Part shown: in pieces, positions 4,845 through 58,300 of the stretch
How the letters are laid out: every line of letters begins with the position of its first letter
Position numbering within the stretch: the stretch's first letter is position 1
Virus record (IMG/VR): IMGVR_UViG_3300023109_000014
Location: 1-64,000 of that record
Direction: 5' to 3' (one strand)
DNA from: a virus
Length of the DNA: 64,000 bases
Made by a program: the position numbers and the translations under genes
Notes under the pieces: generated by a model
What the model was told of the DNA's origin: nothing
What the model saw: the letters and a program-made list of their open reading frames with translations, nothing else
The model's database searches: none

Positions 4845-5251
4845 TGGGTTTAGATCAATACGCTTACGCTCGTCCTCCACGCAAACGCAATGGAGATGAC
4901 GATGAACAGATTGCCGAATGGCGAAAGCATAATCGCTTGCAAGGTTGGATGGAGCAGTTGTGGAACGATAAAGGATGCCCTAATGCAGATGAGAGTGACA
5001 ATTTCAACTGCGTTGCACTTCAAATCACAGAAGAGGACTTAATCAATCTAGAAGATGCAATCGACAACTTTGAACTGCCCGAATCCAATGGTTTCTTTTG
5101 GGGAAGTGATTCTTATTTTTGGACAGATGAAAATGACGAGCCATTTCCCGAAAACGAATATTGGTATAAAGAATCAGATCTTAATTTTGTAAAAGATGCA
5201 AAAAAGATGCTTGACAAAGGTTATCGAATTTATTATAGTAGTTGGTATTGA
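4844..5251 (+). CDS. conserved phage protein (MGLD...WRKHN family)
   Basis: MGLDQY, WRKHNRLQGWM, GFFWG, terminal YYSSW. Confidence 0.75.
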   Translation: MGLDQYAYARPPRKRNGDDDEQIAEWRKHNRLQGWMEQLWNDKGCPNADESDNFNCVALQITEEDLINLEDAIDNFELPESNGFFWGSDSYFWTDENDEPFPENEYWYKESDLNFVKDAKKMLDKGYRIYYSSWY

Positions 5252-36252: not shown

Positions 36253-36265
36253 CATGCCATGAAGC

Positions 36266-37342
36266 ATGGTCGAGAAACCTTCTAAAGAAAAAGAGCTTAG
36301 TCCAGACAAAATTGAAGAGCTGAATGAAATTCGGCTCCGAAAAGTACTTAGTGCCCTAATTCAAGGATCTTCTTTGATTAAAATATCTCCCAGTAAAGAT
36401 AGCGTTATGCATGACATTAGCAGGACAGAGATAAAGTGTTACGCTAAGCATTTCTCGCTTGCCGATCAAATTCATCTAGATCAGAAATATGAAGAGTTTT
36501 TTTCCAAAGCTCAGGCAGGAGAAATTCCTACTAAGCAAGAAGCCTTGCAAAGAATGTACGATAATGGGCTATGGACAGAGGAAAATGAAAAATGGGTCGC
36601 CGCTCAAAAAGAATTTATTAAAAATCTAGAACAAACAAAGTTAAAATTGACTATGTCTGCGCAGATTGCTAGCGTCCAAAAAAGCATTGATGGGGTTGAA
36701 GGTAAACTTAAAAAGCAGCAAGAAAAACGAGCAAAGCATATAGGAACTACTTGCGAGAGTTACGCAAACGTACAAATGAATTCTTATACAATGATTTATT
36801 GTTTGTTTTCAGATGCAGAATGTAGCGAGCCCTTATTCTCTAAAGAAGATCAGGATTATTTATCTCACGAAGATATTGGTTTGATAGTCATGTCTTACAA
36901 TCAAGGCATGAAAAATCTTGATATTAGCGCAGTTAAAGAGTTATCTGTTAGCCCTTTTTTTACTTCTTATTTTTCTTTAATTGAGGAGTCTCCCGCAGAT
37001 TTTTTCGGAAGGCCTGTGCATCAGTTGAGTTTTTACCAGTTAAATTTATTAAGCTACGCAAGAGTTTTGAGATCAATAATTAAAAATACAGCTCCTCCAA
37101 AACAATATCACAGAGACCCAGACAAACTATTTGAGTGGGCAGAAAAAGGAGATAAGGCTAGAAAGCTAATGGAAAAAGCTGGTAACGAAGACAAGGCCTT
37201 TTCAATGGTTGGCGCAAAAAAAGAAGATTATGAACAAGCGGGTGTCGAAAGGCAAGGTAAAGATATTTTTGATTTAGCTAAAAGCAAAAAAGGTAAAAAG
37301 TCAGGAACTTTATCAATTATGGATTTCTTGGATGAATCTTAG
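36266..37342 (+). CDS. second tail assembly chaperone (putative)
   Basis: directly upstream of TMP; FFG.P...L..YQ..L..Y...DPDKLFEW. Confidence 0.55.
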   Translation: MVEKPSKEKELSPDKIEELNEIRLRKVLSALIQGSSLIKISPSKDSVMHDISRTEIKCYAKHFSLADQIHLDQKYEEFFSKAQAGEIPTKQEALQRMYDNGLWTEENEKWVAAQKEFIKNLEQTKLKLTMSAQIASVQKSIDGVEGKLKKQQEKRAKHIGTTCESYANVQMNSYTMIYCLFSDAECSEPLFSKEDQDYLSHEDIGLIVMSYNQGMKNLDISAVKELSVSPFFTSYFSLIEESPADFFGRPVHQLSFYQLNLLSYARVLRSIIKNTAPPKQYHRDPDKLFEWAEKGDKARKLMEKAGNEDKAFSMVGAKKEDYEQAGVERQGKDIFDLAKSKKGKKSGTLSIMDFLDES

Positions 37343-37377: not shown

Positions 37378-40300
37378 ATGGCGCAAGAAAATATTAGAGT
37401 AAGAGTTAAGGCGATTGGGTTAGATCAAGACATCGCCAACCAAGCAAAAATAGGCGAAAAGAAAATAAAACCTATTAAGCTTTCTTTGAATGAAAAAGGG
37501 CTTGTGCAACCTCTCGGTAGAATTACTGGGCAAATGGGAGAATTCGAGAAATCGATGGATGCTGCGGTTGCTCGTGTATTCGCTTTTGGAGCTGCTGTTT
37601 CTGTTATAAATGGAGTATCTAGCGCATTAAAAGCTATGGCGCAATCTGCAATGGAAGTTCAAAAAGCTTTGAAGGATATCAATGTTATTATGAATATGTC
37701 AGAATCTGCTTTGCAAAATTTTGGCGGAGCTTTATTTGATGTTGCTAGAGATACTGCTTCATCATTTGATGATATTTCTGCAGCAGCAACTGAATTTGCC
37801 AGACAAGGCTTAAGCGCTGACGAAACACTGCAGAGAATTGCTGACGCTATGACCTTAACGAGATTGTCTGGCATGGACTCTGTAGAAGCTGTAAATGCTT
37901 TAACCGCTGCAATTAATGGTTTTAATGACGCAGCAATCAATTCCTCTGATATTGTGAATAGGCTAGCTAATGTTGATGCCGCATTCGCTGTATCTTCAAA
38001 AGATTTAGCTGATGGATTGGCGCGAGCAGGGGCAACTGCCCAAGCTGCAAAAGTAGAATTTAACGAGCTGCTTGCTGCAGTTACAAGCGTTCAACAGCAA
38101 ACCGCTAGAGGTGGCGCAGTGATTGGAAACTCTTTTAAAAGTATATTTACTAGGCTTCAGAGATCGAGCGTAAAAGAAGCTATGGAGGCTATAGGTGTCG
38201 CGACCCAGGATGCTTCTGGTTCATTTAGGTCTGGAATGGCAATCTTGCAAGATTATGCTAGAGGTTATGATAATTTATCTGACTCGCAAAAAGCTGCCAC
38301 TGACGAATTAGTTGCTGGGGTTTTTCAGGTTAATAATTTAAAAGCTTTGATTAAAGATTTAAATAGTGAGTTTAGTATATACGATCAAGCTTTAAAAACT
38401 GCAAACAGTAGTACAAACGAAGCCACTCAAAGAAATCAAGAATTGAACAAGACTATGTCGGCTTTGATGACTCAAACTGGTCTATCTATTAAAGAGCTTG
38501 CTGCAGGCCTTGGAGAAATGACCCTTGGGCCTGGGATCGAGAAAGTTCTCGAAACAGTAAAATCTTTATCTGACGGTTTAAATAACTTAATAGGTGAAGA
38601 TACTGGCTCAAGCATAGGTAAAACTCTTTTAAAAGGCATTGGTAGTTTTATTAGTGGTCCTGGGATGGTTTTAATTGGGGGTGCGTTTATTAAATTATTT
38701 GCGTTTGTCGCACAACAAGGTTCGAGTGCACTAAAATCAATCTTTTCCATCAATAGCGAAACTAAAAGACAAGAAGGTTTGCAGGCAGCAATTCTGCAAA
38801 TATTAATGAATGAAGAAAGTATTCGACAGAAAATCCTGGGTGGCGCCGCAAGTCAAGCGGCGAAAGAGCAAACGATTTTAAGCGTTTTAAAAAAGCAAAC
38901 CATGGAAAGGCAGGCGCAAGATGCGCTTTTAAAAAAAATCGCTGCGTCGTCTACATTAGCAAATGTCGCAATAAGTAATCAAGGAACCATTGTTCCGCAT
39001 GGTAGGGGTTCTAGAGCTGCCGCAGGCAGAAAAGATCTTGGAATGTCTAAGGGTTATGTTCCTCCAGCCACTAAAGATTCTAAATTTATTCCATCTTTCG
39101 AGGCTGAACAAAAAGATATAGAGAGAAGGGTTGGAGGCGCAACTAAATCAGCTTCTCCAGTTTTAATAAAAGGTTTTCAAAAAACTAAAACGCAAAAACA
39201 AGATGTCGTCGCTAATACGGACGAGGTTGTTGTTGAAAATTATATGGGTTCGGGCGCTTCCGCCATTTTAAACAAAAACATGGCTCAAAGGTTTAGTTTT
39301 GATAATGGGGTAGAGAAATATTACTCTGCTGCAGAATATGGTTCAAAAAATTTCTATTCGTCTGGCTATGTTCCTAATTTCAAAGCAACAAATAAGCAGG
39401 TAATTAAATTAAATGCAGCTGGACAAGGAATTATAACTGCAGAAGCTGGAAAGTCAGAAGTTGGTAAAAATCATACAGTTACTGCTTCTTCAGTTTTTGA
39501 TGGCCCAGTTCCTCCAGCATTTAAAGGTTCAAAATTTGAAGCAAGAAATTTTACAGTTGGAAGATTAGAACAATCTAAAGGAGGCTTTCATAGTATTGTA
39601 GATAAGCATATGACTACTGCATTAAGAGACGTTGCCCAAGATGTTGTTCCAGGTGGAAAGGTTAAAGGTTCTGGACCCCTGAGTGATTATTTAGATAAAT
39701 CTGCAGGACCTCAATTTACTGGAAGAATTTTTGAGGCAACCTTAAATTATATTAAAAATTCAGTAGTTAAAAATGATCCTGGAACAGCTGGCTGGGATTT
39801 TCCTGGAGGACAGTTTCAAAAAAATCTAACTACTGCATTTAATCTTGATTCAAGAAAAGGAAAAAATGTCGATGCAAAAGTGTCATCCAGCAAAAAAAAC
39901 ATAGGAAGCGGCATTAAGAAAATTATTGACTCTAGGGGTGGTTATAAAAATTTAAAGCAGTACAAAGATTTTGAAAAACAAAATAAAACTAAAAAAGCTT
40001 CTGCAGTTGGAAAACCAAGAGCTTCAAAAGGAATGATTCCATCAAATACCGCAAGTGTTCCGAATTTTGTATCCACTTGGGGTAAACCAGAATTGCTTAA
40101 AAAGATTAGAGAAAAGAATTTATCAAGAGCTCAAAAAGATATTAAAGGTTTTGACGGCATGAAGGCAACTAATGAATGGAGCGGTCAATTACCTATTATA
40201 CAAGTCGCCGATAAAAAAACTGGAACAACAACTAGATTTACTTATGGTAAGGGAGAGTATGATAACGAAAATAAGACTGACATTTTATATTCAGAAAGAG

Positions 40301-43300
40301 CTAAAGGGGTAGACGTAAACGATCCTTCTATGAAAGGTGGAGCTAATAGAAATTTTGATAAAATCGCAGAGTTTACAGGAAAAAGAAGTTGGAAAAATAA
40401 AGAGATTCATAGCACCTTTGACCAAATTCGAGCTTCTTCAGGCAAGACTCCTTGGGAAACCATAATCAATTCATTCCCGCAATTAAAACAAAGAGTTAAG
40501 CCAGGAATGTCAACCTCGGGAACTTTTCAAATTGGTACTGATGAAATCGAATATAGAAATATTAAATCTTTAAAAACTAAAGTTAATAAATGGGTTAAAG
40601 AAAATGGTATAGAGTCATTTAATAATTGGTCAGAAGCAAATTTAGGCTTTAATACAAAAAACTCAATTTTAAGCGGAACTGCATCTGGCGAATATTTTGC
40701 TATGGATGCATATACAAAAATATTAAAAAAAGGAGACAAGCATTTTAATCGAGATGAAAAAGCTGGCTTTTATTCTCAGGGAACTGTCCCTAATTTTATT
40801 ATTGATAAGAATACTGAAAGATCTATATTGCTTAAACAATGGCAGGGAAAACTTGATCAAGCCAGAACTCTCGCTAAATCAGGAAAACCCAGAGCTCAAA
40901 CAGACCCTCAAATTAGCCAACTGAATGGCGAAGCAAATGGAATATGGAGCCAGATTGTTAAAATGCAATCCCCTCAAAAGCCAAAAACCAAAAACGAAAA
41001 AAGCCACTCTGAAGGTTTGATCCCTAACTTCTCTAGTTATTTAGATGCTGGCAGCAATGTTGATAAAAGTTTTGGAGGAGGGATTGTTCCTAATTTTGTC
41101 AAGGTTGGCGAAACAAATCTAGAGAGAGACCGCCTTTTAAAGCAATGGCAAGGCAAACTTGCACAAGCAAAAACCTTATCTCAATCGGGTAAACCCAGAG
41201 CTCAAATAGATCCTCAAATTAGCCAGCTTAACGCAGAGGCAAATGGGGTATGGAGCCAAATCCAAAGTTTAAAAACTTCAAAAAAAGAAAAAACAGGAAA
41301 ATTAGGAAAAGGTTCTACGCTTAGAAGATCTGAGGGTCTTGTTCCCGCTTTGGCAAAAGGTGGAATACCAAACTTTAGCGAAGATAAGATGCGTGAAGAA
41401 ACGTTAAGTAGGACAATATCGAAAATGTCTGAAGGTTTAGTTCCCAACTTTGCTCTCAAAAGAAATGCTGGACTAAGAAAGTTTTACGATTTTGACGAAA
41501 CTTTAGGAACGTATTCTAAAAACGTTAAATCTAAGGATTTATTTCAAGCGGAGTCAGCAGGGCTTGCGAAACCAACCCCTCTCGCAAAAGAACTTGAGGG
41601 GCAAGCCGTAACTATTTTAACCGCAAGAGCAAAGCAGTCAACTCCATTTATTGAAGAAAAATTAAAGAAGTGGGGTATTAATCCTGAAAAGATTATGACT
41701 ACTGCGGATATGTTTAATAATCTTAAAATTGCTAATGACGGGTCTGGAAAAATTATTAAGGCTCAAGGAGGAAGAATCTCTGGTTATAGAAATTTAAAAC
41801 CTGCCGAGAAAAAAGCTATTCTTCTTGAAAGAATATGGAAAAAACAAGGAGGTCAATACGATTTAATTGATGATGCGATTGAAAACATCGAAGCAATTAA
41901 AAACTTAAGGAATGAAAATATAACTGGCACTCATTATCAATTTAGTGGTCAGCATTCTGGAAGAGGTAGTGGGAATGCCGAAGGTTTAGTTCCCAACTTT
42001 GTTCAATCAGAAAATACTCAAAAAGATCTTGTCCCCAATTTTGCTGCAAAAAGCATGCCTGTTCCTGGTTATTTAGAAAAAGTTTCCAGAGAAATTCAGT
42101 CTGCAGGGGGTAGTGCTCAAATTGTTGGTGGGGCTCCTAGAGATTTTTTAATGGGAAAATTTCCTAAAGATTGGGATGTAGAGGTTTTTGGTTTAGAACA
42201 AGAAAAGTTGCAAAAAATATTGTCTCCATCTTTAACTAAAGAAGGTTTAGTTGGTAAAGATTTTGGAGTATTCAAAGCTAAAAGTGGAGGTCAAGATTTT
42301 GAGTTCTCGATGCCAAGAAGAGAAAAGAAAGTGGGTGTTGGGCATAGAGGTTTTGAGGTTGAAGTAGATCCTAACATGGGGCGTAAAGAAGCTGCACAAA
42401 GAAGAGATTTAACAATCAATTCTATTTCTTACGACCCCCTTACAAAGAAATTTATTGACCCCTTGGGGGGGAGGAAGGATTTACAAGACGGCATCATGAA
42501 GCCTACGTCTCCCAGATTTAAAGAAGACCCTTTGAGAGTGTTAAGATCTATGCAGATGGCTGGAAGGTTTAATCTTTCTGCAGATAAAGAATTGGTCAAC
42601 TATTCTCGAGAAATGACTGGACAATTTAAAGACCTTCCGAAAGAAAGAGTGAGAGAAGAATGGATGAAATGGGCATCTAAATCTACCAATCCAGAAAAAG
42701 GTTTACAATTTTTAAAAGAGTCTGGGTGGATAAAACATTTTCCTGAAATTGATCAATTGCAGGGAGTTCCCCAGTCTCCCAAGCATCACCCTGAAGGAGA
42801 TGTGTTTAATCACACAAAGCTTGTGACGAATGCAATGGCGAATAATAAAAACTGGCAAATGCTTCCAGAGAAAGAGAGGGGTAAATTAATGTTTTCTGCT
42901 TTGACTCATGATTTTGGAAAAGTTACAAATACACAAATAAGTAAAGATGGCGCTATAACTTCTTATGGGCACGAGAAAGCTGGAGTAGCACCAATGAAAA
43001 GTTTCTTGGGTAGGATTATGTCTCAAGGAGAAGCGAGTAAATTATCTAAAGACTTAACGCCTTTTGTTGAAAGACATATGTTTCACTCAAATTTTCCTCA
43101 GAATTTGACGCAGAAATCTATTAATAGGTTGACTAAGGACGTAGGGGACCTAAGCAAGTTTCAAATATTGCTTGAATCTGACATGGGTAAAAATTTATCG
43201 GATGATGTAACTGCCAGAAAATTTACTCAGGTTGACGAAAAAAATATTAATAAGATGAGTTCAATCGCAAAAGAAAGTGGAATATATAAAGAGCCGCCTA

Positions 43301-46300
43301 AGCCGATTGTACAAGGTAGGGATTTGATGCAAGAAAAATTAATAGAACCTGGCCCTCAAATGGGTTCTGTATTAAAACATCTAGAAGAAGCTCAAATAAG
43401 TGGAGAGTTTAAAACTAAAAAAGGGGGAATTGAATATTTTAAAAATAACAAAGAAGATATATTAAAACGTATTAATAAATTTACCCCAAAAGGTAGAATG
43501 TTGAGAGGGAGAGCTAGCGGAGAAGTTCCAGAAAAAATAAATTATTCTCAAGGCTTGGTGCCTAATTTTGCTAGAATACCTTCTATGTTTAACGTTAAGC
43601 AAACTAAAACTGGCAAGGATTACGTAATGCAAAAAGATTTGGAACTTGCTAAGACGCAGTTTCCTGACGCAACTTTTAAACAATGGGGCAAGAATCCAAA
43701 GATGCATTTCATTTCTGGACATAAACCTCAAAATAAAATAACGAAGGACAAGGTATCCTTCGCGTCTAACGTAGACTTGCAGGAGTTCGGTAGCTTTGCC
43801 GCCCAAAAAGGATATCCAGAAGTAATGGGAGCGATTGTTAAGTCAACTCAAGTTAAACAGAATTCTTCAGGTAATAGAAATTATGATCGATTGACATCTT
43901 GGAAAAACAAAAAAGAAGAAGTTCCTAATCAAATAAATATTAAAGATGCCCAATCTCTCTCTACTGAAGACTACAAATCTTTTCCAATGGGTAAAGCTGG
44001 AGCAGATTTAAAAAGATTATATAATCCTGACAGTTTTGATAATGTATCTAATACAATTTTTACTTCTTCAGCACCTCAAAAAGCTCTTGCAAAATCCGCA
44101 GAGAAATTCACTACAAATAAGATAGAAAATTCTGAGGATATATTAAATTTTGTTAAGAAATCTCGTGGGTCAGAATCAATTTCAACCGAACAAATAAATA
44201 AATTATATCAAGAGTTTGCTGAAATGAAAGGTCTTGCAGTTATGTCTGATGGACATGTGCCTAATTTTGCTTCTCCTGCTTTTAATAAATTCATAAAAGA
44301 TAATATACATAATAAAAATTATAAAAATATTTCTGATAAAGTAACTAAATTGAATCTATCTGTTGGCAATGCGTATGGAGTTGGTGGTGATATTCCTCAA
44401 GATGTTAAAATTTTAAATCGTTTAACTTCTCAATTATCTAAAGTAACAAACCCGCTCATGGGTCCAACAGGCAAAGGTTCAAGGGATAGAGTATACGAAT
44501 CAAAAGAATTTGCGCAGAAATTTAACAAAACTGAGTATGACAAAATCTCAAAAGAAATTACAACATTGCAAAAAGAAAAGTTTCAATTAAGTCGCCCATC
44601 AAATCCAGACAAAAATCCAGACAGAGTTAAAAAAATTGAGTCTCAAATTTTAAAGAAAAAAGAGCAGGCAACTAATACGCAATTTTATAAAGCTAAATCT
44701 GAAGCGGTGAAGAAAGAAGATCAAGGAATAGAAAGGTTGTTTCAAGAAAAATTTACCGTCCAAAAAGATCAAATTGTTTCGCCTACAGGTAAAACTGTAT
44801 CAACTAAAGATTTAAATTCTATTGAAGAAGAGTTTAATGAATATATGTTTGCCAAGCAACAAAAAAGAACTAATACAAACGAAGAATTAGTCTTGCCCAA
44901 TTTTTCTGTTACTGCCCCAGAAACAGTCCCAAACTTTGTCAACGTAAAAGCAATGAGAGAGCTTGCAAAAAGAGGTGCAACTGAAGGAGAGAGAGCTGCC
45001 GCTCAAAACATGTTAGCAAAGCATGGGTTTAAGAGTAAAACAATCACATCTAGAAGTTGGCACGATAAAATATTTTTAGAAAATTATATTAAAAATAACG
45101 GTCCTAAGTCTGACCTTGAGATGTTAATTAAGAAAGGTTATGCTGAGAAAGAATTAGTTTCCCTAAAAAAACAATATCAAAATGACCCTCAATCTGTTAA
45201 AATTGCAAATCACGGTATTGTTCCAAGCTTCTCAAAACAAAAAGACCGAATAAGTGAAGCGGATTACGAAACCCAATTGTATAAAGAAAACTTTAAAGAC
45301 TCATCTCAAAAACAAAACGTCAACAATTTTAGCTTTGTCGATGACAGAACAACCTCTTCTTCAGGCTCTCAAAGTTTTGCAGAGGGTATGGTTTCTAAAG
45401 ACGTAAGCTCTAGCAGTTCTTCTGTAGACTCCAAAAGTTTTGCAAGTGGAACTGTTTCCAATATTTCTTCGCAAGAAACTGAAACTTTAGCAACTGGGTT
45501 TATTCCAAACTTTGGTATTCAATCTGACCGAATCAAGGAAGCGAGTCAAGCCTCTCAACTTTACGGACAAAATGTTGGGTATAAAGATACTCAAGTTAAA
45601 AAATTAGAAATTAACGGAAAGAAAGAGAGAGTTGTAGTAAACAATAAAGAAAAATTTTACTCTACTGGTTCAGAAGTTCAAAAAGCTTTTAGCCTCCCTT
45701 TTAAACCTAATGGAGGAATGGTTTTGCCTCCAAAAAATACTAAAGTCGGAAAAGAAAGAAGTAGAGAGTTTAGTAGTTTGGTTAATTCTTTTTCTAGCGG
45801 CGTAACTCCTACTGCCGATTCTTCTCCTCCTACTTTGGCTTATGGAGCTATGCCAAATTTCGCGGTATTCAGAAAATATTCTCCAAACACCTTAAGGAAA
45901 TCCAAGATTAAGGATTATTCTAACGAAGAGTTTTCTTCGATAAGTAGAGCTTTATCGGAATTTAACCTTATGTCTATGGGGTCTAGAGGAGGTTTGATGG
46001 GTCAAAAATTAAAGTCTGAGTCTCGAGCAGAAGGTTTATTTAAGACTAAGACGCAAGAGCAAAAAGATGATTTTAGACAATTTTTTAATTCAAGAGAGTT
46101 TAGAAGCTTAACAAAGAATGTTCAGGAAAAACTTAAAGTTGATTTTCCCGATTTATCCAGGGGTTACGGTTATAACGTTGACCCTTTTGCTGTGAGGCAA
46201 CTCGAGAATGTAAGCGCTGGAACAGTTCCAAATTATGCAAATTTAAGTTTATATAGAGGGCAAAAAAAATCAACTATAGATAAACCCAGCGTTGGTAAAA

Positions 46301-49300
46301 ATATGCCAAGCTTTGGCGGCGCACAAACTCCTCGAGACATTATTAATATAATTCAAAATTTTGTTAAGTCTCACGTCAGCGGCCCTCTCTCTGGAAGAAG
46401 AGATATTGGAGAGTTAGATAATGTTGCTCCGTCTGGCGCTACCTCATTTAGCACTTCAGAAACTGTCGCTAAGAAATTTGCTGGAGGAGGTTTAAATAAG
46501 CCTGCAAAAGATAATATACTTTCCACTCAGGTTCCAGAAAAAAATGTATTTAATAAAAAGAAAATTCTTAAATTATTAAATCGAGGAGCTAATCCAAAAA
46601 AAGGCCAATACCCAGAAGTAGAAAAATTTAAAAAAGCGATGGCTTCTGGACAAATTCAAAAATGGGCAGAGCAAGCTGGGGGACTTTTCTTGAATGTTTC
46701 TGGCAGAAGAAATGATAAGTCTCTTCAGAAATTTAATAAAACGGAATACGGTCGAAAAGAGTATGATTTTTATGATAGACCTATGAGTTCAATTGTGCCT
46801 GAGTCTGATATTGGTTGGAATCCTAGTGGAACTAAACAAATCAGTCCCCACGAGAATGAGGTTATGCAAATTTTTGACGAAGGAATTGTACCTAATTTTT
46901 CTGGAGCAGCTGGTTCTGCAGGCAGGCAAAAAAATAAAGCCTATCAGGACGACCCCGACAATATTATAGATTTAAGGCCGTTTACTACATTTGATTATTC
47001 TTTATTATTTCCCCAAAGAGGTGCTGGAAAATCTAAAGATGAAACATTAAGAGGGAGTGGGCCATATGCAAAAAAATATCAAAGTCAATTTCTTGTTGGT
47101 TGGAATGCAAAAGGAATAAATCCAAAAATCCCTAAAGAAGCTGATAAGATCGCAAAAATAGGAGACGCTGTAGAAAGAGATGTTAAAACTATAGTTAAAG
47201 CTCATTCTGAAAATTTCGTTAGAGCTTTTGGCGAAGAAAAGATTAGAATACAGGATTCGTCTGCAATTGATGGAGTTGTTCAAAAACATTTTAACGAAGG
47301 AACTTTAACGGCGATGGCTGGGAACGCTTTTGAGGCCGCTGCAAATACAGCTTTTAGCAACGTACCTGTAAACGCGGGAGGAGGAGATTTTGATGTTAGA
47401 GGCCCAACCGATCAGTTAAGGAGGTTTTTTAATTGGCCTTCTGCTCACGGATCCGTAGGAGATTTTAAGGCCAACTCTCAGTCGGGAGATATTAAAGCTA
47501 GCATGGCGGACAAGATATTAAAGGAGCTTGATTATAGAGGTTTATTATCTGGACAAGTTGCAAAAGAAAAAGCTGACTTTGATCAGTATGATAAAGATAA
47601 GGCGGCAAAAAACAAAGCAGCTACCATCTCTCGATTTAAAAATGTTCCTGGGTCAAATTCTTTAAGAGGAGGGATTACCCAAAAAGCTCCAAAAGGTTCA
47701 GCACCTTCGGAATCAAACCAGCAACATTCTAAAATCGTCGGCTCTAGTCGATCGGGTCAGGAACAAGAGGATTTCTACTTTTCTCAAGATAAAAACTTAT
47801 CTCTCGGTTGGGTTCCAAACTTTAAAATAAATCAAAATCTTGCGGGAGATTCTGTTCCAAGTTTTATTGATAAACCTAAGGAGCAGTTAAATAATTCGCT
47901 AAAAGTTAAAAGCGAAAAAGTTGACTTGCAAAAATCCCTTAAAGCAAAAAAAGGTACTTCTGTAGATTCTCAGAACGAGCTCAGAAGTCAAAATGTATCT
48001 AACGCTTCGGCGAAAAAGTTTGAGTCAATCATTAATAATCGATTTATTGATTCGCAGGAAAACAAAAAGTTTTCTTCTAGCTCTTTCGCAGATTCCGCTC
48101 AGTCTAAAAGTTTACAATTTTCTCGATCATCCAGCAACCTTTCTTCAGATTTTCTTAATACTCGATCTGAAAATAAAGTTTCGAAAGACGCTTCTGTGGA
48201 TTCGCAAACTTACTCGCAGGGCATGGTGTCGAAAGACGCTTCTGTGGATTCGCAAACTTACTCGCAGGGCATGGTGTCGAAAGATAACCAAGTGCCTTCT
48301 AAATCTTTAGAAGCCTCTAAATTTGATTTGACTACCATACATAGGCTGAGAGATAAATTTTTGTCAAGAGAGGAAGCTGTACAGAAAAATATTTCGCCTA
48401 GTGAGCGTAAGCTTGCGTTGCCTAAAGGTAAAAAGCAAGAAGGCAACTCTGAGTTAATCAATTCAATTTATTCTCACGGCAAAGATTTCTCTGCGGATAG
48501 GTTATCTAATGGTTACATTCCTAACTTTGCAATTAATGCAAATAATTATTCAAAGACTAATGATGCTTTAGGTTCCGCAATTAAAAGAGAAAATCAGGCG
48601 GGAATTCCAATGAATAAAATTAGAGTGGGTCAAAGCAATCGATTGAAAAATGAAAAAAATCCTGGAGGAGTTGGAGTGTTTAATACAATTGATGAACCAA
48701 GAGGTTTAAATCAAGGTATTAGTAGGTCTATATCTCAAGGAATCAATCCTCATAAACATGGCCTTGTTTCTTCTGGTTATGTCCCCCAACAAACAATTAA
48801 CGTTCCTAATTTTGTTGGAAGGTTTATTCCTAAAATGTTTAAAGGCGGAAGTAAGGGGGGTAAAGGTGTTGACGCTCCAATTCCAACTTCGGGTGGAGGT
48901 GGAGGCGGAATGTTAGGGGGTGGCGGAGGCTTAATGAATACTATATTTATGGGGCAAATGATGTTTGGAGGCATAGAAGGTAAAACTGGTACTGCAGGAG
49001 GATATGCGGCAGATGCTACTGGAGACGCTTTGCAGATTGCAGGAATAACATCAATGATCACAGATAAAAAGAAGTGGGTTGCTTTAGCTGCAACAGTTGG
49101 AGCTTTGAATGGAATGCTTGACCAATATTCAAAAAGCTTAAAAATGCAGGGAGAGCAAATCCAGAAGAATATTCAAATTAATGGAAAAGCTATTGAGAGC
49201 GCAACTCAAGTTGTTTCTGCCCAAACAAGACTTAATTCTGCAATAGAATCTGGCAACACAGACAATATATCTAAAGCTATTGAATCCCTCCAAAAAGAAA

Positions 49301-52300
49301 TAGAAAGGTTTCCAACAAATGGAAGCGACGCTATAATTAAACTTCGCAGCGACCTTGTTGGCGCTGGTGGAGATGTAGAGATTATGTCGAAAGCTTTAGA
49401 ATCATTTTCTCAATCTGCTCTTAAGGTTTCTAAATTAGGAGAACTAACAGTTAAAACTCAAGCTGTTAACGAAAATAGAGAAGGTTTAATTTTTGGAATG
49501 GGGCCTTCTCAACTGCCTGAATGGATGGGTGGAGCTAAAGGAGATTTAAAAGAAGAGGGTTCAAATGAAATTAGGCAAATAGGTAGAGAATCTGTGACTA
49601 ACTTAGCGCTTGCAGAAGATCAGGTTTCAGCATTTTCTTCTAAAATTTCAAAAATTGATTTTACAAAAATGTCTCCCGATGATATTAAGTCTACGATTAA
49701 AGAGTTTTCTAGAACTTTAGACGAAGAAACTAGAGTTTTGTTCGATCAGATTGTTGATAATGTTCCTGATGATGCTGTTGTCGATTTTACCATGGGTATT
49801 GGCGAGCAATTAAAGCTAAGAAAATCTTCCATAGAGGCTGGCAAGGCTGTTGGAAAAACATCTCAAGCTCTTGGTAATTTAAAAAGTACAATTGTAAATT
49901 TATCTACAGCTGTCAGCAGAAGTATATCAGAATTAAATTCTAATATTTCTAAAGCTTTTGATATTGCTGAAAACCAATTAAATTCTGAATTGAGTATTAT
50001 GACAGGGATGAATTATATTAGCCCTAAGGAAGCGAATGAAACTAAGGAACAGTTTGAGGTTACAAGAATCGAAAGTGAAGCTGCTGCAGGCACTGAATTT
50101 GAGGTATCTAAATTCGTATCTCAATTAATTAAAGATACGAAACTTGACGATGTAGAGGGTAAGGATGCATCTATTTTTTCTGGAAAACTTGGAAATATTC
50201 TTTCAAAAATGGGAGAGCGAGCAAATCCATTGCAAGACGAAGATCCGAGGTTTATGGCAAATGAAATAGTTTCTGCTATAAGTCAAATGGATCCAGCAGA
50301 CCGAACTCAAGGCGAACAAGAATTATTAGATGCAGTCAAGCAGATTGGGGACAAGGCCGCTTCTCAAATTACTTTATTAAAACAGGCTAACGAATTGGCT
50401 TCTAGACAGCAAACAATGCAGAGCAGAATGAACCTGCAAAATGCTCAAATCGATATGGAGAGAGACGGCGATACGCTATCTCAATTTTCATGGTCTCAAG
50501 GCTTAGAACCTAGAACTCAGCTAGATAAAGATATGCAGACTCGCTCTAGTATGGATATGATTGGTTTACTTGAGCCTTTATTTGGACCTAGTGAAGATCT
50601 GACTAAAATGAAGCAAGACGTAGGCGTTCAAAATGCAATTGGCAATGTACAAAGAATACTTCTTGGAATGGGTATTGAAAACGATGCTGGTTTTGATGCT
50701 GGCGCTAATGAAGATATTAGTATGCAAACAATGATTTCTGAAATGCAAAAAGTTTTAGCTCAAGGAGATTTAAATAAAGGGCAAGAAAAAATCGTAAACT
50801 ACATGGTTGGCCAATTAAAAAAGCAGGAGGCCGCTATTTCTGCAACCCCGCAAAATACAGAAGATCTAAAGAGACAGACTGTTCAGTCTACATCTGATGT
50901 TCTCGGTGTTGATTTAAGCGAAGTTGGTATTGATTTAGAGTCTTTGGATTTTAGTTCCCTCAATGCTATTGCTGATCAACTCGCAGAAGATGGCGTTGAG
51001 ATAAAATATTTATCAAGCATCGAAGAAAATACGAAAGTTATGGCTGCAAAATTAAATGATGCCCAAGGAATTACCAAGGAAGATATAATAAGCGCTATAC
51101 AGAACATACAAATTAAAGATGCTGAAAAAGTAGAGAAAAGAAAGGAAGCTGTTAAGCAAAAAGAAGACACTCGTAGTAAAATACAAGATATTGCTATATC
51201 TGGCGCCGATGTGAAAGTTGAAGGGGGTGCAGATATAAATGTAGGCGGTAGCACTACTATTAACGCTAACCCTCAAAGTTCTCAACCTCCTCAACCGCAA
51301 TTTAATCCATTTGTACCTAACTTTGCAAAAGATGAGTCCAGCAATAATAAACAATCTCCAATGCGAGGTTTTGTGAAATCCCTTAAAAGAGATAACAATA
51401 CTGAAAACAGGGGTTTTGAAAAGTTTGATGGAAAAACTTTTACTGGCGGTAAGGCATTGCAAGTGGCAAATTATTATCCTGGAGCTATCGACTCAATCTA
51501 TAGAGAAGTTGACGTTTTGGAAAATAGAGGTGTGCAGAATGCTATTAGCAAAATACAGTTAACTGTTCCATCTACATCTAACTCGACCACAAAATATCAA
51601 GGCCCAGTAGTTACAAATATGATGGACGAAGGAAGCGTTTCTGCCCAAAGCTATTTGAATAAAATTAACAACGTACATAATTTAAAACATTCTGATTCAA
51701 ATTTTAGTATTGCTGGCGCAGTTCCTAATTTTGCATCCTCTTCTCAGTCTCGCGGTTCAGTTAATGCTTCTGTGAGAAATGTTAATGCTAAATCAATTGC
51801 AAATAATATTTCAAGAATAAATCAAAAAAGTGATTGGAAGATGGCAAGAGGGGAAGAGAGCGCTGGAAAAACTTATTCTTCTGGAGCTGCATTAAGGGTT
51901 GCGAATTATTACCCAGAAACAAAAGAAATGTTAGACCAGGAAATTTCAATTCTTAAAAGTAGGGGTATAGATAGCCCATTAAGCCAAGTTCAGTTAACTG
52001 TTCCAGACGAAAACACTACAACTTTTCAAAATAAGAATACATTAGATCCTACAATATCGAATCGATTTGATGATGGTTCTGTATCAATATCAAATTATAC
52101 AAAAAAAATTAGGAACGCTCACAAGGTAGGGTTGCTGACTCCCCAGAAACCAGCAAGCGTCGGAGAGCATGCTCGTGAAAGGGCAAAAAATTTAGTTAAT
52201 AACGAACAAGCTTTAAGGAATCAGCTGCACGAAAACATTCTTAAGAAAAGAAAATCCGTTGTTCTCTCCGAGGAGTTAAAATCCAGAAATGAAAGTATAG

Positions 52301-55300
52301 ATGAGCCTGAGGCAAAAAAAATAAATATTACTGAGAAAGAGGGTTTGAAGTATGAAGGAGGAACATTTTCTGCGGGAGCTGCTTTGAGGGTTGCAAAATA
52401 TTATCCTGGAGCAACAGAATCTATATTTAGGGAAATTCGATCTTTGGAAGAAAAAGGCGTTTCAAGCCCTCTTGATCAAGTCCAGCTTACTATTCCAGAA
52501 AAAGGTTCGAAAGAATTTTCTTCTTATAACGGACCAGTGGTTACGAACAAAATTGATGAAGGAGGAGTAAGTTCTAAAAATTATCTTAATAAAATTAGAA
52601 GCGTTCATAAGGTAACTCCTAATGAAGGGCAATTTGCTTCTGTAGGAATGCCTAATATTGATGCGAAAAGTCAATATACTAGAGGGGCAATAAATAGCTT
52701 TTCTCAATTCGATTATGTTCCTAATTTTAGCAAAACAGAGGGTCGAGCAAAGGGAATTATTCGTTCTGCTAGAGAGCTAAGTATTGCTATGGAAAAAATG
52801 AATGAGCTTCCTGAAAATATTACCCCTTCTCAAATTGCGGAATTTAATCAAAAGGGGTCTGCCGTATTAGAAAATATTAATAGCTTAGGCAACCCAAACC
52901 AGCAAACTCTCACAAAAACACAAAAAGCTCTTGTTTCAAAAATGCAGGATCCAGAAGTTGTTAAAACTTTTCAGTCCATTGGGATAGATAACTTTAATTC
53001 TGATCTTGCTCAATTTGTTAACCCTGACAGTCTTGGAGAACCTCCTCAACCAGCTAGATTTAACCCTTTAGTTATTCAAAGTGCCGAAACAGGGCGGGCG
53101 GTTGAAAGCGGCACAAAGGTACTTCCGAGAGATATTAAGAGCGGTAAGTTTAACGTTGCGCAAGTTATGCTTAATGATGAAAATTTAGATGAATTTATTG
53201 AACCTTCAGAATCTAAAAATATTCAAGCAGTCGTTCAGTCTTCTCAAGACAGCGGGCAAAAGTTTAACGAAAATAAGAAAAAGTTACAAGAAAAGCGGCC
53301 AAATTATGCTAGTGGTAAGGGTACTCGCTATACTGATGAACCTACCGCTCCAAAAGCTGGAACACTAACTACCGCAAAGAAAGAAGGTTTTGTTGGTATA
53401 GAGTCTCACGGCCCTTCAAAAGCGCTCGCAACCCAAGTGAGAAACGAGGAAAACGCTTTAAAGAACACTACAAAAGAATTAGTTAAGGATGGTGAAGGAG
53501 GATTCATGAGAAATGCTTCCTCTTGGATTCGCAAAAAATTACAAACTATAAGGTTTCTTGATGGCAGCTCCAACGAGCAGAAACAAGGGATGTCTATAGA
53601 AAAAGAAAATGCTGTATTAAAGCAAATAGAAGATGATGGAATTGTTCGATACCCATCAGATGATAGCGCTTCCCCTTTAGAGAAATCGCCAGAATTTAAA
53701 CAACAAATTTCTGAAGTTTTAGACAATCAAGATTTGTCTTCTCAGGAAAGGGGTACGTCCCAAATTGAACAGCAAACAGAAACTTGGAGAAAAAGAGAGC
53801 ACTCTCTTACAGAAAAAATTCAGAGAGCTACAAAAGCAAGACAACTCAAAAGACAAAGAAGCAGGGCTCAAGAGCTAGGTTCTGCCGAACGACAAAGAAA
53901 AACAAATTTAGATGCCAAAAATAAAAGACAAGAAGCTAAAGAAAGAGAGAAGCGGAAGGTTCGAGAAATCCAAGAAAGGCAAATTGATGAAGGTTTAGGT
54001 CGACAGAAAATTGGCACCAATTCAGAAACTGGAAAAAGTATTTATCATTACGATAACCCTCAACTTAGAGAATTAAGCTCTTGGGATAAGTTGAAGCATC
54101 ACATGCTAAAATTTGTTGGGTTAGACGAGGGTTCGTATTACGAAGAGGTTGAACGTCAAAATAAGATCGTAAGAAACAAACAAATGCAGGATATTGCTAC
54201 TGGCGGAATTAATACTCAGCAATCTAAGTCTATGTCAACTCTTGAGAAGCTTAAATTAATGTCTGAACGCGATGTTCTAATTGAGTCTAGCGAGTTTGCA
54301 AAAGAAACAGACGGACAAAAAATATTAAGAGGAACTCCAGGCGAGCGAAGAAAATCTTCTTTGTTTGACATTCAACAAAAAGCAGGGGTCGGCGGAAAGC
54401 CTGCGGTTATTAATCTTGCGGGAGATATTTCTAGCCAAACGAATATCGCTGGCAGTTCATCTAAGTCTAGTAGTTTGACTCAATTATCTCAATCTAGAGC
54501 TGCCGAAGCTCAGCCCACGTTAATGGATAAGATAAGGAACGTTAAAAAACAACTGTCTGAAAAATTTGGAAAAGTAACATTAAGTCCAACAAGCTCGGCC
54601 TCTGTTCTGCAAGAGTATGATATTCTTGATTCTAGTGGAAGGGTCGTAGCTAAAATGGGTTCCAATGGTGAGGTGCTACCTTTTGAAGTTGATAATTCAC
54701 CTGTTATATATAACGCTCAGGGTCAAAAAATAGGAGCGGATAAAGTAATTCAAGTTCAGGAGAAACAGTTTGCGTTGCAAAGCTCTCCCATGAATGATGG
54801 CCAGTTATCTACAAGCGTTAATCAATCTGACGTGTTAGAACAAAAAGCTTTATTTGATATTGGTGAAAAAATTAAAAGCGGAGCGCCTATTTCTTCAGCG
54901 GAAACTAATTTAGTTCAAAATTGGGCAAATAAAAATTCAGAACTTGTCGGCTCGATTAATGCAGACGATGTAGATAACGCTCTTTTGTTAGAAAATAACG
55001 TTGTCGATAATAAGCAAATTAGAATTGGTAGGATGGGCGAGGAACTTTCAAATTTAACATCTGTTACGAATGCAGCAAATGCAGAAGCTCAGGTAGAGTC
55101 TTTAATTAAAGACCCTCAGTTCGTTGATAGCGCAACTAGGACAATGCCTGGAGATAACTTGCATTTGCAAAGAGTTTTTGATTCTATAGATGATAAAAAT
55201 AGGAAAACGAAAAGTACCCCAATCAAAACAGAGACTGCGTTGGATAGGGTTAAGAGCAATGCTAATATAAATCAAAGAGCAAATGCTTTAAGCAAAGAAA

Positions 55301-58300
55301 TGGTATCTAGAGATATAAGAAAAAATTCATCCCTAGAACTTCAGAAAAGATTAAGACTAAACAAAGGTTTTGATACAACCGAATTAAATACAAAGTTTTC
55401 CAACGAAAAATCCAGGCTTGAGGAGTTATTGAAAAATCCAAGTATTCCTTCTGATAAGAAAGTTGGCCTAAACGAAGATTTAAAAATATTGACAAGAAAT
55501 CGGAATGAGCATTTAAATACTCTTAGACCTGGTTTTATGGAGAGAAAGGAAATATTAATAAACGAACAGTTTAAAAATATTATGAGAGACACTGGTTTAA
55601 TGTCGTTGACTGGAGGTGGCGCAGACGGAGTTTCTTCTAACGATCCAGTTAATCAGTTTATGAAAGATAAGCTTGGGCCGAAAGTTTGGAACATGGATGG
55701 AAATTTTGTTAAAACTAAACAGCATTTGGCCAGCGCAATTTTTGGCGAAGAGCATAAATTTAATAAAGAGTTGACTGAGTCATTAGTTGATAGGCAGTTA
55801 AGATCGACAATATTAAATACAAAAAGTGAAACTTTTGGGTTGAGTGATCATATGCGTTCTAACCTTATAGACATGGATAAATTTGTAGGTATGGGTTTAG
55901 GCGATGAATTTTTGAACAGTGCAAAAAAACAAGGATTACATCAATCAGATATAGGCGTTTCTAAAATGGTGGACTTTATGGATCTTATGGATCCTGCTGG
56001 CAATAAAATTGACGGAGAGGGTAAACAAAAATTAAAAAAACAAGGCATTCAAAAGATATTTCAAAAAATCCAGAACGGAGAATTATTTTCTCAAACTGCG
56101 ATTAGAGGAAGAACAGTTCCTATAATACCTAAAGATGCAGAAACTGTCTTAAAGAACCTTTCTGGAGAAAGTACATCCGCACAAATAAACGCTGCGAGAT
56201 TAATTGAAAATGAACAGAAGATATCTTCTTTAGCTGCAGAAAAAGGAAGTGGCGTAATTAGCCAGTCAAATTTAAAAATCGCTGCAAGTGAATTAGAGGC
56301 GGGAGATATTAACGAAAATGGTATAGACTTTGACAAAGTTAGGATGAGCTCTGAAGAAATTTCAAACGTTCAATCTATGATGGATTCTATTGACGCAGAC
56401 CCCGATCAAAAAACAGATCAAAGAGTTTCTCAATTGTCTGAAGCTCTTGATCCACAATCAAGCAACGAATCTGTGCGAAGTTTATCTCAATTAAAATCTC
56501 TTGAATTAGAGGCTGACAGAGCTGCAGAAAAAGCAGAATTTAAAAAGTTATTAAGTTTGGGTAGCGGGGCTACTCCTGAAGATGTAGGTAGAATGTCTGA
56601 CCTGCTTCAGTTACATGACCAAAAAATAGAATTAGGTAGATCTTCTAATTTTGATTTAGAAGACGTAAATCAAGCGAGAACAACTATTAAAAATACCGCC
56701 AAGGAAAAAGTTGCAACAGCTAGCTCCACTATTGGTAAAGAACTTTCTCAAAAGAGTGAGCCTGGACAAGCACAAAAAAGAGCTATAGAGGAATTAGAAA
56801 AAATTGATCAAGCTGATCCTGTTGAGCAGGCTGAAGCTATACGTTCAACAAATCAAGAGGCAGAGGCAAAGGTTCGGTCAGCGAGTTTGGATCAGGGAGA
56901 AGATATAGTTCAACAAACAGTTGATCAGGTCGAAGATGTTGATGAAACATGGAAGGAAACTAAGGAGTCTCACATGTCTGATCCAGATAGAGCTGCTTCT
57001 GCTGGAAGACTGGAAGAATTGGGTGAAAAGTATCGAGCAATAATCCAATCCGCTACAGATAGTAAAGCATGGAGAACGACAAGGTCATTAACTAAAAATG
57101 TTCTAGGTGCTGGAATGGGACTTGTTCATCTTCCAGGAAAAGCTAAAGATTTAACAACTGAAGCTTATGGAAGCGTTAAGGAAAGAATTGATGCATTTAA
57201 AAAGGCTCAGGCAGAGAAATTTAATAAAAGAAAAGCAGAACAAATAAAGCATCCAGACGGAAAATCTTCAGGAAATTTTGAACAGCAAGAGAAAAGCAGA
57301 GTAATTGACGCTAAACTAGCTCAGCTGCCAAACACGAAAACAAGCAGAGGGGATTCAAGCTTGGACGATAGCCTTCAGAAAACAAAAAGATTTCATATTG
57401 ATGGAGAAAATATGACACCCTTTGAGCAAGATCTTCATGATAGAATGACTGGCAAAGTTAGAGTCAAGGATTCTGCAGGCAAAACAGTAGAAACTTTTTA
57501 CGATAAAAAAATTGCATCAGTGATTACAAACTCAGATGTTGGTAGAATTTCCAGGGTTGAGGATTCTATTACTGGTAGCTCTTATACTAATCGAGGTTTA
57601 AAGTTGAGAAATCTTCTTCCTGGAACTGCAAGTAGAAACATTGAGGGTCGATCTTTTATTCCTCCAGCTTTGCAGGAGATCGCATCGCTAGGTGGTCTTG
57701 ATGGTCAAGGTAGCAAATTAAAGCTTGATAAAGAAGGCCTTGCTCAAAGAGCTAAAAATATTGGCTCAGAAATATTTACTGGAAAACTTAGCTCTCCCGT
57801 TCAGAGCCTTTTTTCTACTAAAGAATTTCAGACTCAACTTGCGGAAACTAAATCTAGCGGAGCTCATGTAGCAATTCCTGAAGAATTTTCAAAAACCGTA
57901 AAATACGGAAAAAAGGGAGAAGCTAGTGTTTTAGATATAGATGGTGCTGCAGATGAACTTATAAAAGAAACAAGATTGATTGATCATGTTGGAGATGATG
58001 GCAAGCTAACTAGTTTTTCTTCAGATGAATTTCAAGCTTTCAGGGAATCAGAATTTCAAAAAATAGAACAAAGATTTGCGGGCGTTGATAATCCTGCAGA
58101 TCCAGTTCAGAACGAACAAAGAATAACTCAAATTAACGAACAAAAAGAAATGTTCGATAATAAAATTCTTGCCAATAATGCAGTTGATGAATCTGGCCAA
58201 GTTGTTGGTAGAAACACATTAACCTCAGAAGCCGCTCGAAAAAGAATTGCAAACATCCAAAAAATGTCGGTATCTGATGGTATGATTAGAAAGCAAAAGG

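What the first reader, a model, noticed from the sequence alone, without database searches (positions are those of the whole stretch)
39370..52728. About 25 copies of a [SA]xGx[VI]PNF motif delimit each cargo module: candidate polyprotein cleavage or insertion signal
Seen: VPNF/IPNF/LPNF/MPNF/VPNY/VPSF start at 39370, 40057, 40786, 41020, 41086, 41365, 41440, 41989, 42031, 43558, 44257, 44893, 44926, 45220, 45502, 45850, 46225, 46888, 47812, 47854, 48517, 48802, 51313, 51721 and 52717, usually preceded by S/A-x-G-x (SSGYVPNF, SQGTVPNF, SEGLIPNF, AEGLVPNF, SQGLVPNF, SDGHVPNF, SNGYIPNF). The G-x-preceded copies lie at domain boundaries: the HAD, CCA and ART domains begin within about 5-15 residues after one and end shortly before the next. 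Codons vary between copies, so conservation is at protein level. Inference: a protease recognition site that releases free enzymes, or a threading/loading signal; it could also serve as the junction for module gain and loss. I know of no described system with this architecture.
Basis: partly seen in the sequence, partly recalled or inferred. Interest (0 to 1): 0.93.

Follow-up and report, generated by a model that had tools for sequence, protein, structure and literature searches.

The report
Peptide-fenced enzyme cassettes in tape measure
The tail "ruler" protein of this uncultured phage is over 10,000 residues long and carries about twenty separate protein modules, each fenced by the same six-residue peptide; related phages gain, lose and reorder modules at that peptide, but what the peptide does is not yet shown.

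Summary
All 25 listed coordinates carry the motif. PNF occurs 22 times against 0.75 expected. The motifs lie in one ORF, 37378 to genome position 68691, of 10,437 aa. It starts with a PF10145 tape-measure domain and contains a CCA-adding enzyme.

The motif is family-wide. A small conserved module flanked by two motifs finds 1,072 cluster representatives. In 155 retrieved relatives there are 795 strict motifs against 8.2 expected.

The motif marks module borders:
- 16 of 22 homology-block ends lie within 15 aa of a motif, against 4.2 at random.
- Module order differs between relatives.
- AlphaFold2 puts both motifs beside the one module folded in low-confidence linkers.
- P-N-F is 94% conserved while the ±10-aa flanks are 65% conserved.

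Codon use at the motif matches the ORF average, so selection acts on the peptide.

Function is unproven. I favour a recognition peptide for one cognate factor, most likely a protease. Docking is nearly as likely. No protease was found.

This scan already noted the same architecture in at least 39 other genomes. Text searches found the motif in no tape-measure paper.

The parts
37378..64000 (+). Giant tape measure protein ORF. It runs on to genome position 68691 and codes 10,437 aa in all.
   Evidence: PF10145 domain found. Cultured-phage TMPs match only the N-terminal part of relative P0008.
37741..38298 (+). PF10145 PhageMin_Tail domain, residues 122-307
   Evidence: E 5.3e-29
38656..38712 (+). 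First hydrophobic segment (residues 427-445), upstream of the array. A segment at this position is seen in 12 of the 15 family members examined.
   Evidence: Kyte-Doolittle window 19, score 1.77
39088..52728 (+). Array of 27 [VILM]P[NS][FY] copies. Family consensus is [AS]-x-G-[FLY]-[VI]-P-N-[FY]-A. Copies start at 39088, 39370, 40057, 40786, 41020, 41086, 41365, 41440, 41989, 42031, 43558, 44257, 44893, 44926, 45220, 45502, 45850, 46225, 46303, 46888, 47812, 47854, 48517, 48802, 51313, 51721 and 52717.
41452..41988 (+). Identity unverified.
   Evidence: Pfam gives nothing at E<=0.01 and no HAD-named family at E<=1. PDB phmmer gives nothing relevant. The module is shared with P0002 at 70% identity.
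42043..43557 (+). CCA-adding enzyme module (residues 1556-2060)
   Evidence: PolyA_pol E 2.6e-19, PolyA_pol_RNAbd, tRNA_NucTran2_2. The tblastn hits are annotated tRNA nucleotidyltransferase.
46237..46887 (+). ART-like module (residues 2954-3170). An R / S-T-S / E-x-E pattern was read by eye. Identity unverified.
   Evidence: Ten family members (cluster 9; printed). No Pfam hit, no PDB hit, no free-standing homolog of 133-426 aa. The AF2 model was unusable.
48529..48801 (+). 'N..DE' core module (residues 3718-3808). It is the one module found in nearly every relative and always has a motif on each side.
   Evidence: AF2 core pLDDT 84-92. No fold match.
48814..49092 (+). Gly/Met-rich hydrophobic segment directly after the last array motif before the long helical part
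   Evidence: Read. Comparable hydrophobic peaks lie 110-170 aa after the array in 5 of 15 relatives.
35383..36252 (+). Acidic helical protein of 289 aa upstream of the TMP. Likely a tail assembly chaperone, inferred from position.
   Evidence: Homologs sit upstream of the TMP in G001 and G002. None was detected in G003. No family assigned.
36266..37342 (+). Acidic helical protein of 358 aa directly upstream of the TMP. Likely the second chaperone.
   Evidence: In G002 the homologous frame overlaps the end of the preceding gene.
33680..34531 (+). Tail tube protein
   Evidence: PF18906, E 3e-5, below the curated cut-off; phrog_290 minor tail protein.

Best explanation
Shown: the motif G-[FLY]-[VI]-P-N-[FY] is a short linear peptide. 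Where it could be modelled, it lies in a low-confidence linker. In a large family of TP901-type tape measure proteins it fences every accessory module. The modules form an array between the first hydrophobic segment and a universal small 'N..DE' module that is followed by a Gly-rich hydrophobic segment.

Inferred: the array stays covalently joined to the tape measure through tail assembly, so it leaves the tail with the tape measure at infection. The peptide is the common recognition site of one cognate factor that acts on every linker. I take that factor most likely to be a site-specific endoprotease cutting at or next to Asn-Phe. It would free the modules (a CCA-adding enzyme and about 20 others) once the tape measure has been ejected.

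Module exchange at the motif would then be a consequence of selection, not a DNA-level mechanism: only junctions that keep an intact fence survive.
For: Architecture and motif:
- PF10145 and CCA domains lie in one open frame.
- The motif is 30- to 100-fold enriched here and in relatives: 22 PNF against 0.75 expected, and 795 against 8.2 in 155 proteins.
- Six consecutive positions are constrained: G 87%, V/I 95%, P 97.5%, N 94%, F/Y 99%.

Linker location:
- AF2 gives the N..DE core pLDDT 84-92 and both flanking motifs below 50.
- Against an 80%-identical relative, P-N-F is 94% identical, the ±10 flanks 65%, and module interiors 83%.

Cassette borders:
- 16 of 22 block ends lie within 15 aa of a motif, against 4.2 at random; 0 of 10,000 shuffles reach 16.
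- Module order is permuted in P0003.
- 666 inter-motif segments form 213 clusters with narrow length ranges.
- The same pattern holds in G001.

Peptide-level selection: codon use equals the ORF average.

Fusion is kept: only 2 of 155 relatives end or begin at a motif.

Precedent, from passages read:
- T5 pb2 and lambda TMP are cut during tail morphogenesis. The T5 cut, after R1127, separates an enzyme domain (PMC10038345).
- The N-terminal part of the P23-45 TMP is a virion RNA polymerase (PMC10770324, abstract and passages).
- Polyvalent proteins are proposed to be autoprocessed (PMC5512222).
Against: - No cleavage product has been observed.
- No protease family was found in the giant ORF (Pfam), in the proposed prohead protease and eight other head and tail genes before the TMP (Pfam and PHROGs), or in the five genes after it (Pfam). 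The rest of the 82-kb contig was not scanned. The contig may also be incomplete: its sister contig is rated 57% complete.
- The motif is constant in contigs binned with four different bacterial groups. A host protease would therefore have to be very conserved.
- Cutting before tail assembly would lose the cargo, so the timing must be special.
- Folded modules such as a 500-aa CCA enzyme would not fit a tail tube lumen. This is my own knowledge. How they are stored is unexplained under any reading.
- In the AF2 model the flanking motifs did not dock on the N..DE module.
Confidence: 0.4

Rival explanations
1. Docking peptide that is not cut. Each linker binds the same partner during tail assembly or ejection. 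Candidates are a tail assembly chaperone, the tube lumen, another part of the tape measure trimer, or a host envelope or translocation protein. Binding would keep modules unfolded, in register, or handed through one at a time.
For: - The signature is that of a short linear motif in a variable, low-confidence linker.
- Tandem module-less copies 7-36 aa apart would give avidity.
- Copies within one protein share preferences at -1 and 0 more than shuffles do: 0 and 5 of 2,000 shuffles reach the observed variance. GC bias or relatedness could also cause this.
- Two conserved acidic helical genes sit just upstream of the TMP here, in G001 and in G002.
Against: - The motif is missing from the 5,300-aa helical C-terminal half, so it is not a general chaperone-coating signal.
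- G003 has 8 motifs but no detectable homolog of the two upstream genes at E<=1.
- No other protein of the phage carries the motif.
- The flanking motifs do not dock in cis on the N..DE module.
Confidence: 0.3
2. Passive hinge or insulator. The Pro-Asn turn with hydrophobic neighbours only separates modules so that each folds and unfolds independently. No partner is involved.
For: It lies in linkers between autonomous modules. The Pro is invariant.
Against: Six consecutive positions are held at 87-99% across more than 150 diverged proteins, while the surrounding linker drifts. That is far stricter than a spacer needs.
Confidence: 0.1
3. Prolyl switch. The invariant [VI]-Pro bond is isomerised, perhaps by the phage's own cyclophilin, as a timer or folding aid for the giant protein.
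For: A cyclophilin-type isomerase is encoded at genome 80295-81164 on the minus strand (PF00160, E 4.6e-33). It is kept in the close relative G005. I recall, without checking, a prolyl timer in filamentous phage g3p.
Against: No cyclophilin lies on the two overlapping G001 phage contigs, whose tape measure carries 9 motifs. The idea explains the Pro but not the invariant Asn and Phe.
Confidence: 0.05
4. Decoy of a host peptide. The core [VI]-P-x-[FY] resembles the conserved C-terminal peptide of FtsZ. As I recall, the motif also resembles the G-x-x-x-x-F ending of outer-membrane proteins. A multivalent array could sequester that peptide's binding partners.
For: FtsZ C-termini in 3 of the 4 MAGs examined end with [IT]-P-x-[FY]-L-R. 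This is a resemblance only.
Against: The flanks differ: FtsZ has L-D before and L-R after, the motif has G-[FLY] before and A after. The variable x of FtsZ is an invariant Asn here. The idea gives no reason for the peptide to sit at module borders.
Confidence: 0.04
5. DNA-level recombination signal. The motif-coding DNA is itself the crossover site for cassette exchange.
For: Junctions of module gain and loss coincide with the motif.
Against: Codon use at the motif equals the ORF average. Exact DNA shared between copies is mostly 6-9 nt. The two long matches, 22 and 30 nt, probably come from the duplicated module.
Confidence: 0.03

Closest known systems
Thermus phage P23-45 gp96, a 5,002-aa tape measure protein whose N-terminal part is a virion RNA polymerase (PMC10770324; abstract and passages read)
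   Same: A giant tape measure carries a large enzyme in its N-terminal part, and the enzyme is thought to enter the cell with the tape measure. How it is packaged is unknown there too.
   Different: P23-45 has one enzyme rather than about 20 modules, and no fencing peptide is reported. This ORF is twice as long. No sequence relation was tested.
T5 pb2, lambda gpH and mycobacteriophage TM4 tape measures with embedded or cleaved enzyme parts (PMC10038345, passages read; the TM4 paper PMC1796659 seen only in the listing)
   Same: A tape measure with hydrophobic segments and an enzymatic part. T5 pb2 is cut after R1127, between the hydrophobic stretch and its enzyme domain.
   Different: These have a single cut and a single cell-wall enzyme. 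There is no repeated motif, no swappable array and no cytoplasm-type enzyme such as a CCA-adding enzyme.
Polyvalent proteins of phages and conjugative elements (PMC5512222; passages read)
   Same: Many unrelated effector-type domains sit in one virion-associated polypeptide. Domain shuffling is extensive and release by proteolysis is proposed.
   Different: That paper never mentions a tape measure (0 occurrences) or a linker (0 occurrences). Its proposed processing agent, a zincin-like peptidase domain, gave no Pfam hit here. Most modules here match no Pfam family.
Viral polyproteins with a repeated protease site (own knowledge)
   Same: One short conserved site lies at every domain junction.
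   Different: No protease was identified, no products are known, and the carrier is a structural tail protein.

Membership tests
TP901-type phage tape measure protein (PF10145) | PhageMin_Tail domain near the N terminus | tested here: met
   E 5.3e-29, 102 bits against a cut-off of 33.2, residues 122-307
TP901-type phage tape measure protein (PF10145) | Gene lies after the tail tube and chaperone genes and before the distal tail genes | tested here: inconclusive
   A weak tube hit lies at 33680. Two unassigned acidic genes sit just upstream. Large unassigned ORFs lie downstream.
TP901-type phage tape measure protein (PF10145) | Protein length sets tail length | not testable with these tools
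   No virion images exist. At about 0.15 nm per residue (my recollection), 10,437 aa would give about 1.5 um.
Polyvalent proteins (Iyer et al. 2017) | Several unrelated effector domains in one phage polypeptide | tested here: inconclusive
   Only the CCA enzyme is assigned. The other modules are distinct sequence clusters without a family.
Polyvalent proteins (Iyer et al. 2017) | Embedded peptidase, such as the zincin-like MPTase, as processing agent | tested here: inconclusive
   No peptidase family at E<=0.01 anywhere in the ORF. Divergent forms could be missed.
Protease-processed polyprotein | One conserved site at every domain junction | tested here: met
Protease-processed polyprotein | Cognate protease encoded or known | tested here: inconclusive
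   No protease family among the proteins scanned: the giant ORF, 11 genes before it and 7 after it. The early region of the contig was not scanned, and the contig may be about 57% of the genome.
Protease-processed polyprotein | Cleavage products observed | not testable with these tools
   The phage is uncultured. No relative carrying the core module is in the 50,697-record phage collection.
Class II CCA-adding enzyme (module at residues 1556-2060) | Nucleotidyltransferase head plus RNA-binding and C-terminal domains | tested here: met
   PF01743 E 2.6e-19; PF12627 at 21.8 bits, just under its cut-off of 22; PF13735 at 28.4 bits, over its cut-off of 27
R-S-E ADP-ribosyltransferase (module at residues 2954-3170) | ART fold with the R, S-T-S and E-x-E motifs | tested here: inconclusive
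   The pattern was read by eye in 10 members. No Pfam hit and no PDB hit. AF2 mean pLDDT was 33.
HAD phosphatase (module at residues 1359-1537) | HAD fold with four motifs | tested here: inconclusive
   No family called HAD at E<=1. PDB phmmer gave nothing relevant.
FtsZ C-terminal peptide mimic | Acidic residue, then [IV]-P-x-[FY]-[LM]-[RK] | tested here: not met
   Only the [VI]-P-x-[FY] core is shared. The flanks differ.

The most novel reading that the evidence does not exclude
The peptide is the processing code of a tail-borne effector polyprotein. One dedicated site-specific factor, possibly the universal N..DE module whose fold matches nothing solved, cuts or hands off every linker after ejection. 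A single particle would then deliver about twenty free, exchangeable enzymes, each in as many copies as the tail holds tape measure chains, ahead of its DNA. That would be a plug-in injection system built into the tail ruler and spread over more than a thousand protein clusters.
Probability: 0.25. Interest if true: 0.9.

Novelty: new variant of a known kind. Interest (0 to 1): 0.74.

Why it matters
Tape measure proteins are usually seen as rulers and channel formers, with at most one embedded enzyme. Here a widespread, uncultured family uses the ruler as a rack for interchangeable protein cassettes. Each cassette is fenced by one nearly invariant peptide. This example is the largest seen here, at 10,437 aa, about 38% of the 82-kb contig.

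If the cassettes are delivered, phages have a general route for injecting changeable sets of enzymes such as tRNA repair enzymes and nucleases. That bears on phage counter-defence.

The peptide itself is a compact, testable handle. It could define a new protease or docking specificity. It also gives a simple rule for mining hundreds of unknown effector families, since 148 of 213 module clusters are singletons.

Tried and rejected
- Near-identical DNA in 50,697 phage records: none.
- tblastn of the array hit only the CCA part.
- tblastn of the N..DE module: none. Cultured phages match only the PF10145 part of P0008.
- Fold of the N..DE module: Foldseek best E was 3 and VIA-align best Z was 2.9. 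No known fold can be named. A lysozyme-like reading of its helix-hairpin-helix order is only a thought.
- Pfam on 10 single modules at E<=1 and on 9 whole relatives gave almost nothing beyond PF10145.
- The ART-like module had no free-standing homologs of 133-426 aa. AF2 with two sequences failed, with mean pLDDT 33, so no fold search was run.
- The protein atlas returned only viral hypothetical clusters for the two upstream genes.
- Natural split genes at the motif: 1 N-end and 1 C-end case among 155 proteins. No signal.
- Host: the core module was found in 1 of 61 genomes around G001, and that one is G001 itself. The binning with Halobacteriovorax is therefore no host evidence.
- Cyclophilin as a universal partner: rejected, because it is absent from the G001 contigs.
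- Complex prediction for the upstream proteins with the motif-flanked module was not available. Docking is therefore untested. This counts neither for nor against.
- Supplementary files of papers were closed. Those of the P23-45 and T5 papers may hold mass-spectrometry data on tape measure termini.

Full report
**What is there.** The window is the first 64 kb of an 82,461-bp virus record. One frame is open from 37378 to the window end and on to 68691. It codes 10,437 aa, about 38% of the contig. Residues 122-307 are a PF10145 tape measure domain (E 5.3e-29). Residues 1582-2018 carry three CCA-adding-enzyme Pfam families. A large terminase lies upstream, and two acidic helical genes sit directly before the ORF. 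A weak tail-tube hit was also found. Cultured phages match only the N-terminal tape measure part of a relative. No near-identical phage record exists.

**The observation.** All 25 listed coordinates carry the motif.
- The window part of the ORF has 27 copies of [VILM]P[NS][FY] against 0.54 expected, and 22 PNF against 0.75.
- The whole ORF has 29 copies. Gly stands at -2 in 17 of them.
- The copy at 46303 lies inside the ART-like module and is conserved there, so it is probably not a fence.
- Elsewhere in the genome only two Gly-less copies lie in plausible ORFs.
- Codons vary and match the ORF's codon usage. Exact DNA shared between copies is mostly 6-9 nt. Selection is on the peptide.

**Relatives.**
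- Two IMG/VR contigs share the N terminus at 89% identity; over the 4,006 residues of L002 held, identity is 80%. L002 keeps 23 motifs there.
- Two large relatives were found, P0002 (7,181 aa) and P0003 (5,299 aa). Both have PF10145 and the motifs.
- The last module of the array, 'N..DE' at residues 3718-3808, is shared with tape measures of 1,040-1,991 aa. There it is always flanked by two motifs.
- A profile of this module found 1,072 representatives at E<=0.001 among 1.84 billion, and 912 at E<=1e-10.
- In 155 retrieved proteins there are 795 strict motifs against 8.2 expected. 72 proteins have at least 5 and 11 have at least 10. The number rises with length, r = 0.77. One or two motifs per protein are expected from the way these proteins were found; the rest are not.
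- Each core position is held: G 87%, [FLY] at -1 in 524 of 590 copies, V/I 95%, P 97.5%, N 94%, F/Y 99%, and A after it in 52%.
- A pattern scan of species genomes found the family in five MAG contigs. They are binned with Halobacteriovorax (two), Verrucomicrobiales, Cellvibrionales and Flavobacteriaceae.
- None of 60 further genomes near the Halobacteriovorax MAG has it, so the host is unknown.

**The motif marks module borders.**
- Against P0002 and P0003, homology blocks break at motifs. Of 22 block ends inside the array, 16 lie within 15 aa of a motif. Random expectation is 4.2, and 0 of 10,000 shuffles reach 16. Six ends lie farther away, at 17-132 aa.
- BLAST blocks tend to run up to a shared motif. 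That is what a junction at the motif means, but it sharpens the figure.
- P0002 lacks the CCA module and its neighbours, and the join sits at a motif. P0003 has shared modules in another order. G001 shows the same.
- Splitting 156 proteins at the motifs gives 666 segments of at least 40 aa in 213 clusters, of which 148 are singletons. Cluster lengths are narrow, for example 175-177 and 154-157 aa.
- AlphaFold2 on the N..DE module with flanks (37 sequences) gives a confident core, pLDDT 84-92, with a helix-strand-strand-helix-helix order. Both motifs fall below 50.
- Against the 80%-identical relative, P-N-F is 94% identical, the ±10-aa flanks 65%, and module interiors 83%. This is the signature of a short linear motif in a drifting linker.
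- The array follows a hydrophobic segment at about residues 420-450 in 12 of 15 proteins examined. It is followed by a Gly-rich or hydrophobic segment.

**What the modules are.** Only the CCA enzyme is assigned.
- The HAD-like and ART-like modules have no Pfam hit at E<=1 that names those families and no PDB sequence match.
- The ART-like module has an R / S-T-S / E-x-E pattern in ten members, read by eye. It has no free-standing homologs, and my two-sequence model failed.
- Nine whole relatives gave almost no Pfam family beyond PF10145.
- The N..DE fold matches nothing solved.

**How it may work.** The fusion is kept: 2 of 155 relatives end or start at a motif. No other phage protein carries the motif. 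The modules therefore seem to need the tape measure, which fits delivery with it. This matches the proposal for the RNA polymerase part of the P23-45 tape measure (PMC10770324).

A peptide held this strictly in a loose linker points to one cognate factor. I favour cleavage (0.4) for three reasons:
- T5 and lambda tape measures are cut, and the T5 cut frees an enzyme domain (PMC10038345).
- Soluble-substrate enzymes would work better when free. This is inference.
- The site has a small residue after the aromatic one.

Against cleavage: no protease was found among the proteins scanned, and the contig may be incomplete. Docking (0.3) explains the tandem copies and the within-protein uniformity (with caveats). 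The two upstream genes are not detectable in G003.

**Comparison and novelty.** The closest known cases are the P23-45 TMP-fused polymerase, T5 pb2 and lambda gpH, TM4, and polyvalent proteins. The polyvalent-protein paper never mentions tape measures (PMC5512222). Text searches for the motif found no relevant paper. Those searches cover only the held library. This scan has already noted the same architecture in at least 39 other genomes, with like verdicts. I rate it a new variant of a known kind. This ORF is the largest example seen here.

Noticed in passing
genome 80295-81164 (-), outside the window; L017:17295-18164: The phage encodes a cyclophilin-type peptidyl-prolyl isomerase (PF00160, E 4.6e-33). 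This is notable beside a protein with about 27 invariant X-Pro motifs. It is kept in the close relative G005 but not found on the G001 phage contigs.
   Followed up: partly
genome 81160-82461 (-), outside the window: A collagen-like G-T-D/G-T-H triplet-repeat protein (PF01391, E 3.2e-41) runs off the contig end.
   Followed up: no
window 48529-48801: The 'N..DE' module is a widespread small domain, with 1,072 cluster representatives. It has invariant R-E, N-P-x-G, N and E-P-x-G residues. It has no Pfam family and no solved-fold match.
   Followed up: partly
window 35383-37342; L016:10915-12661: Two acidic helical genes before the tape measure are conserved in G001 and G002. In G002 the second frame overlaps the end of the first by 26 nt, which may indicate a chaperone-type frameshift pair.
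   Followed up: partly
window 40798-41364: Two adjacent copies of one ~70-90-aa module (residues 1141-1210 and 1241-1325) fall in the same cluster, so this is an internal duplication. G001 carries the same module.
   Followed up: partly
window 51325-52716: Read by eye in the translation: three copies of a ~130-aa repeat between the last three motifs (residues ~4650-5114).
   Followed up: no
P0002-P0156 and the giant ORF: Cysteine frequency rounds to 0.000 across these tape measures.
   Followed up: no
L008-L011, L014-L015 (G001 contigs C4 and C1): The two MAG contigs overlap within the tape measure gene. Together they look like one phage of roughly 93 kb with a tape measure of about 5,070 aa and 9 motifs.
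   Followed up: partly
G005 (contig of L002): The 79,989-bp sister contig is rated 57% complete, so the window's 82-kb record is probably also a fragment of a larger genome.
   Followed up: no
window 39382-40056 and 46900-47811: Modules with D...(D/E)xK-like residue patterns, read by eye, that may be nucleases. Pfam found nothing.
   Followed up: no
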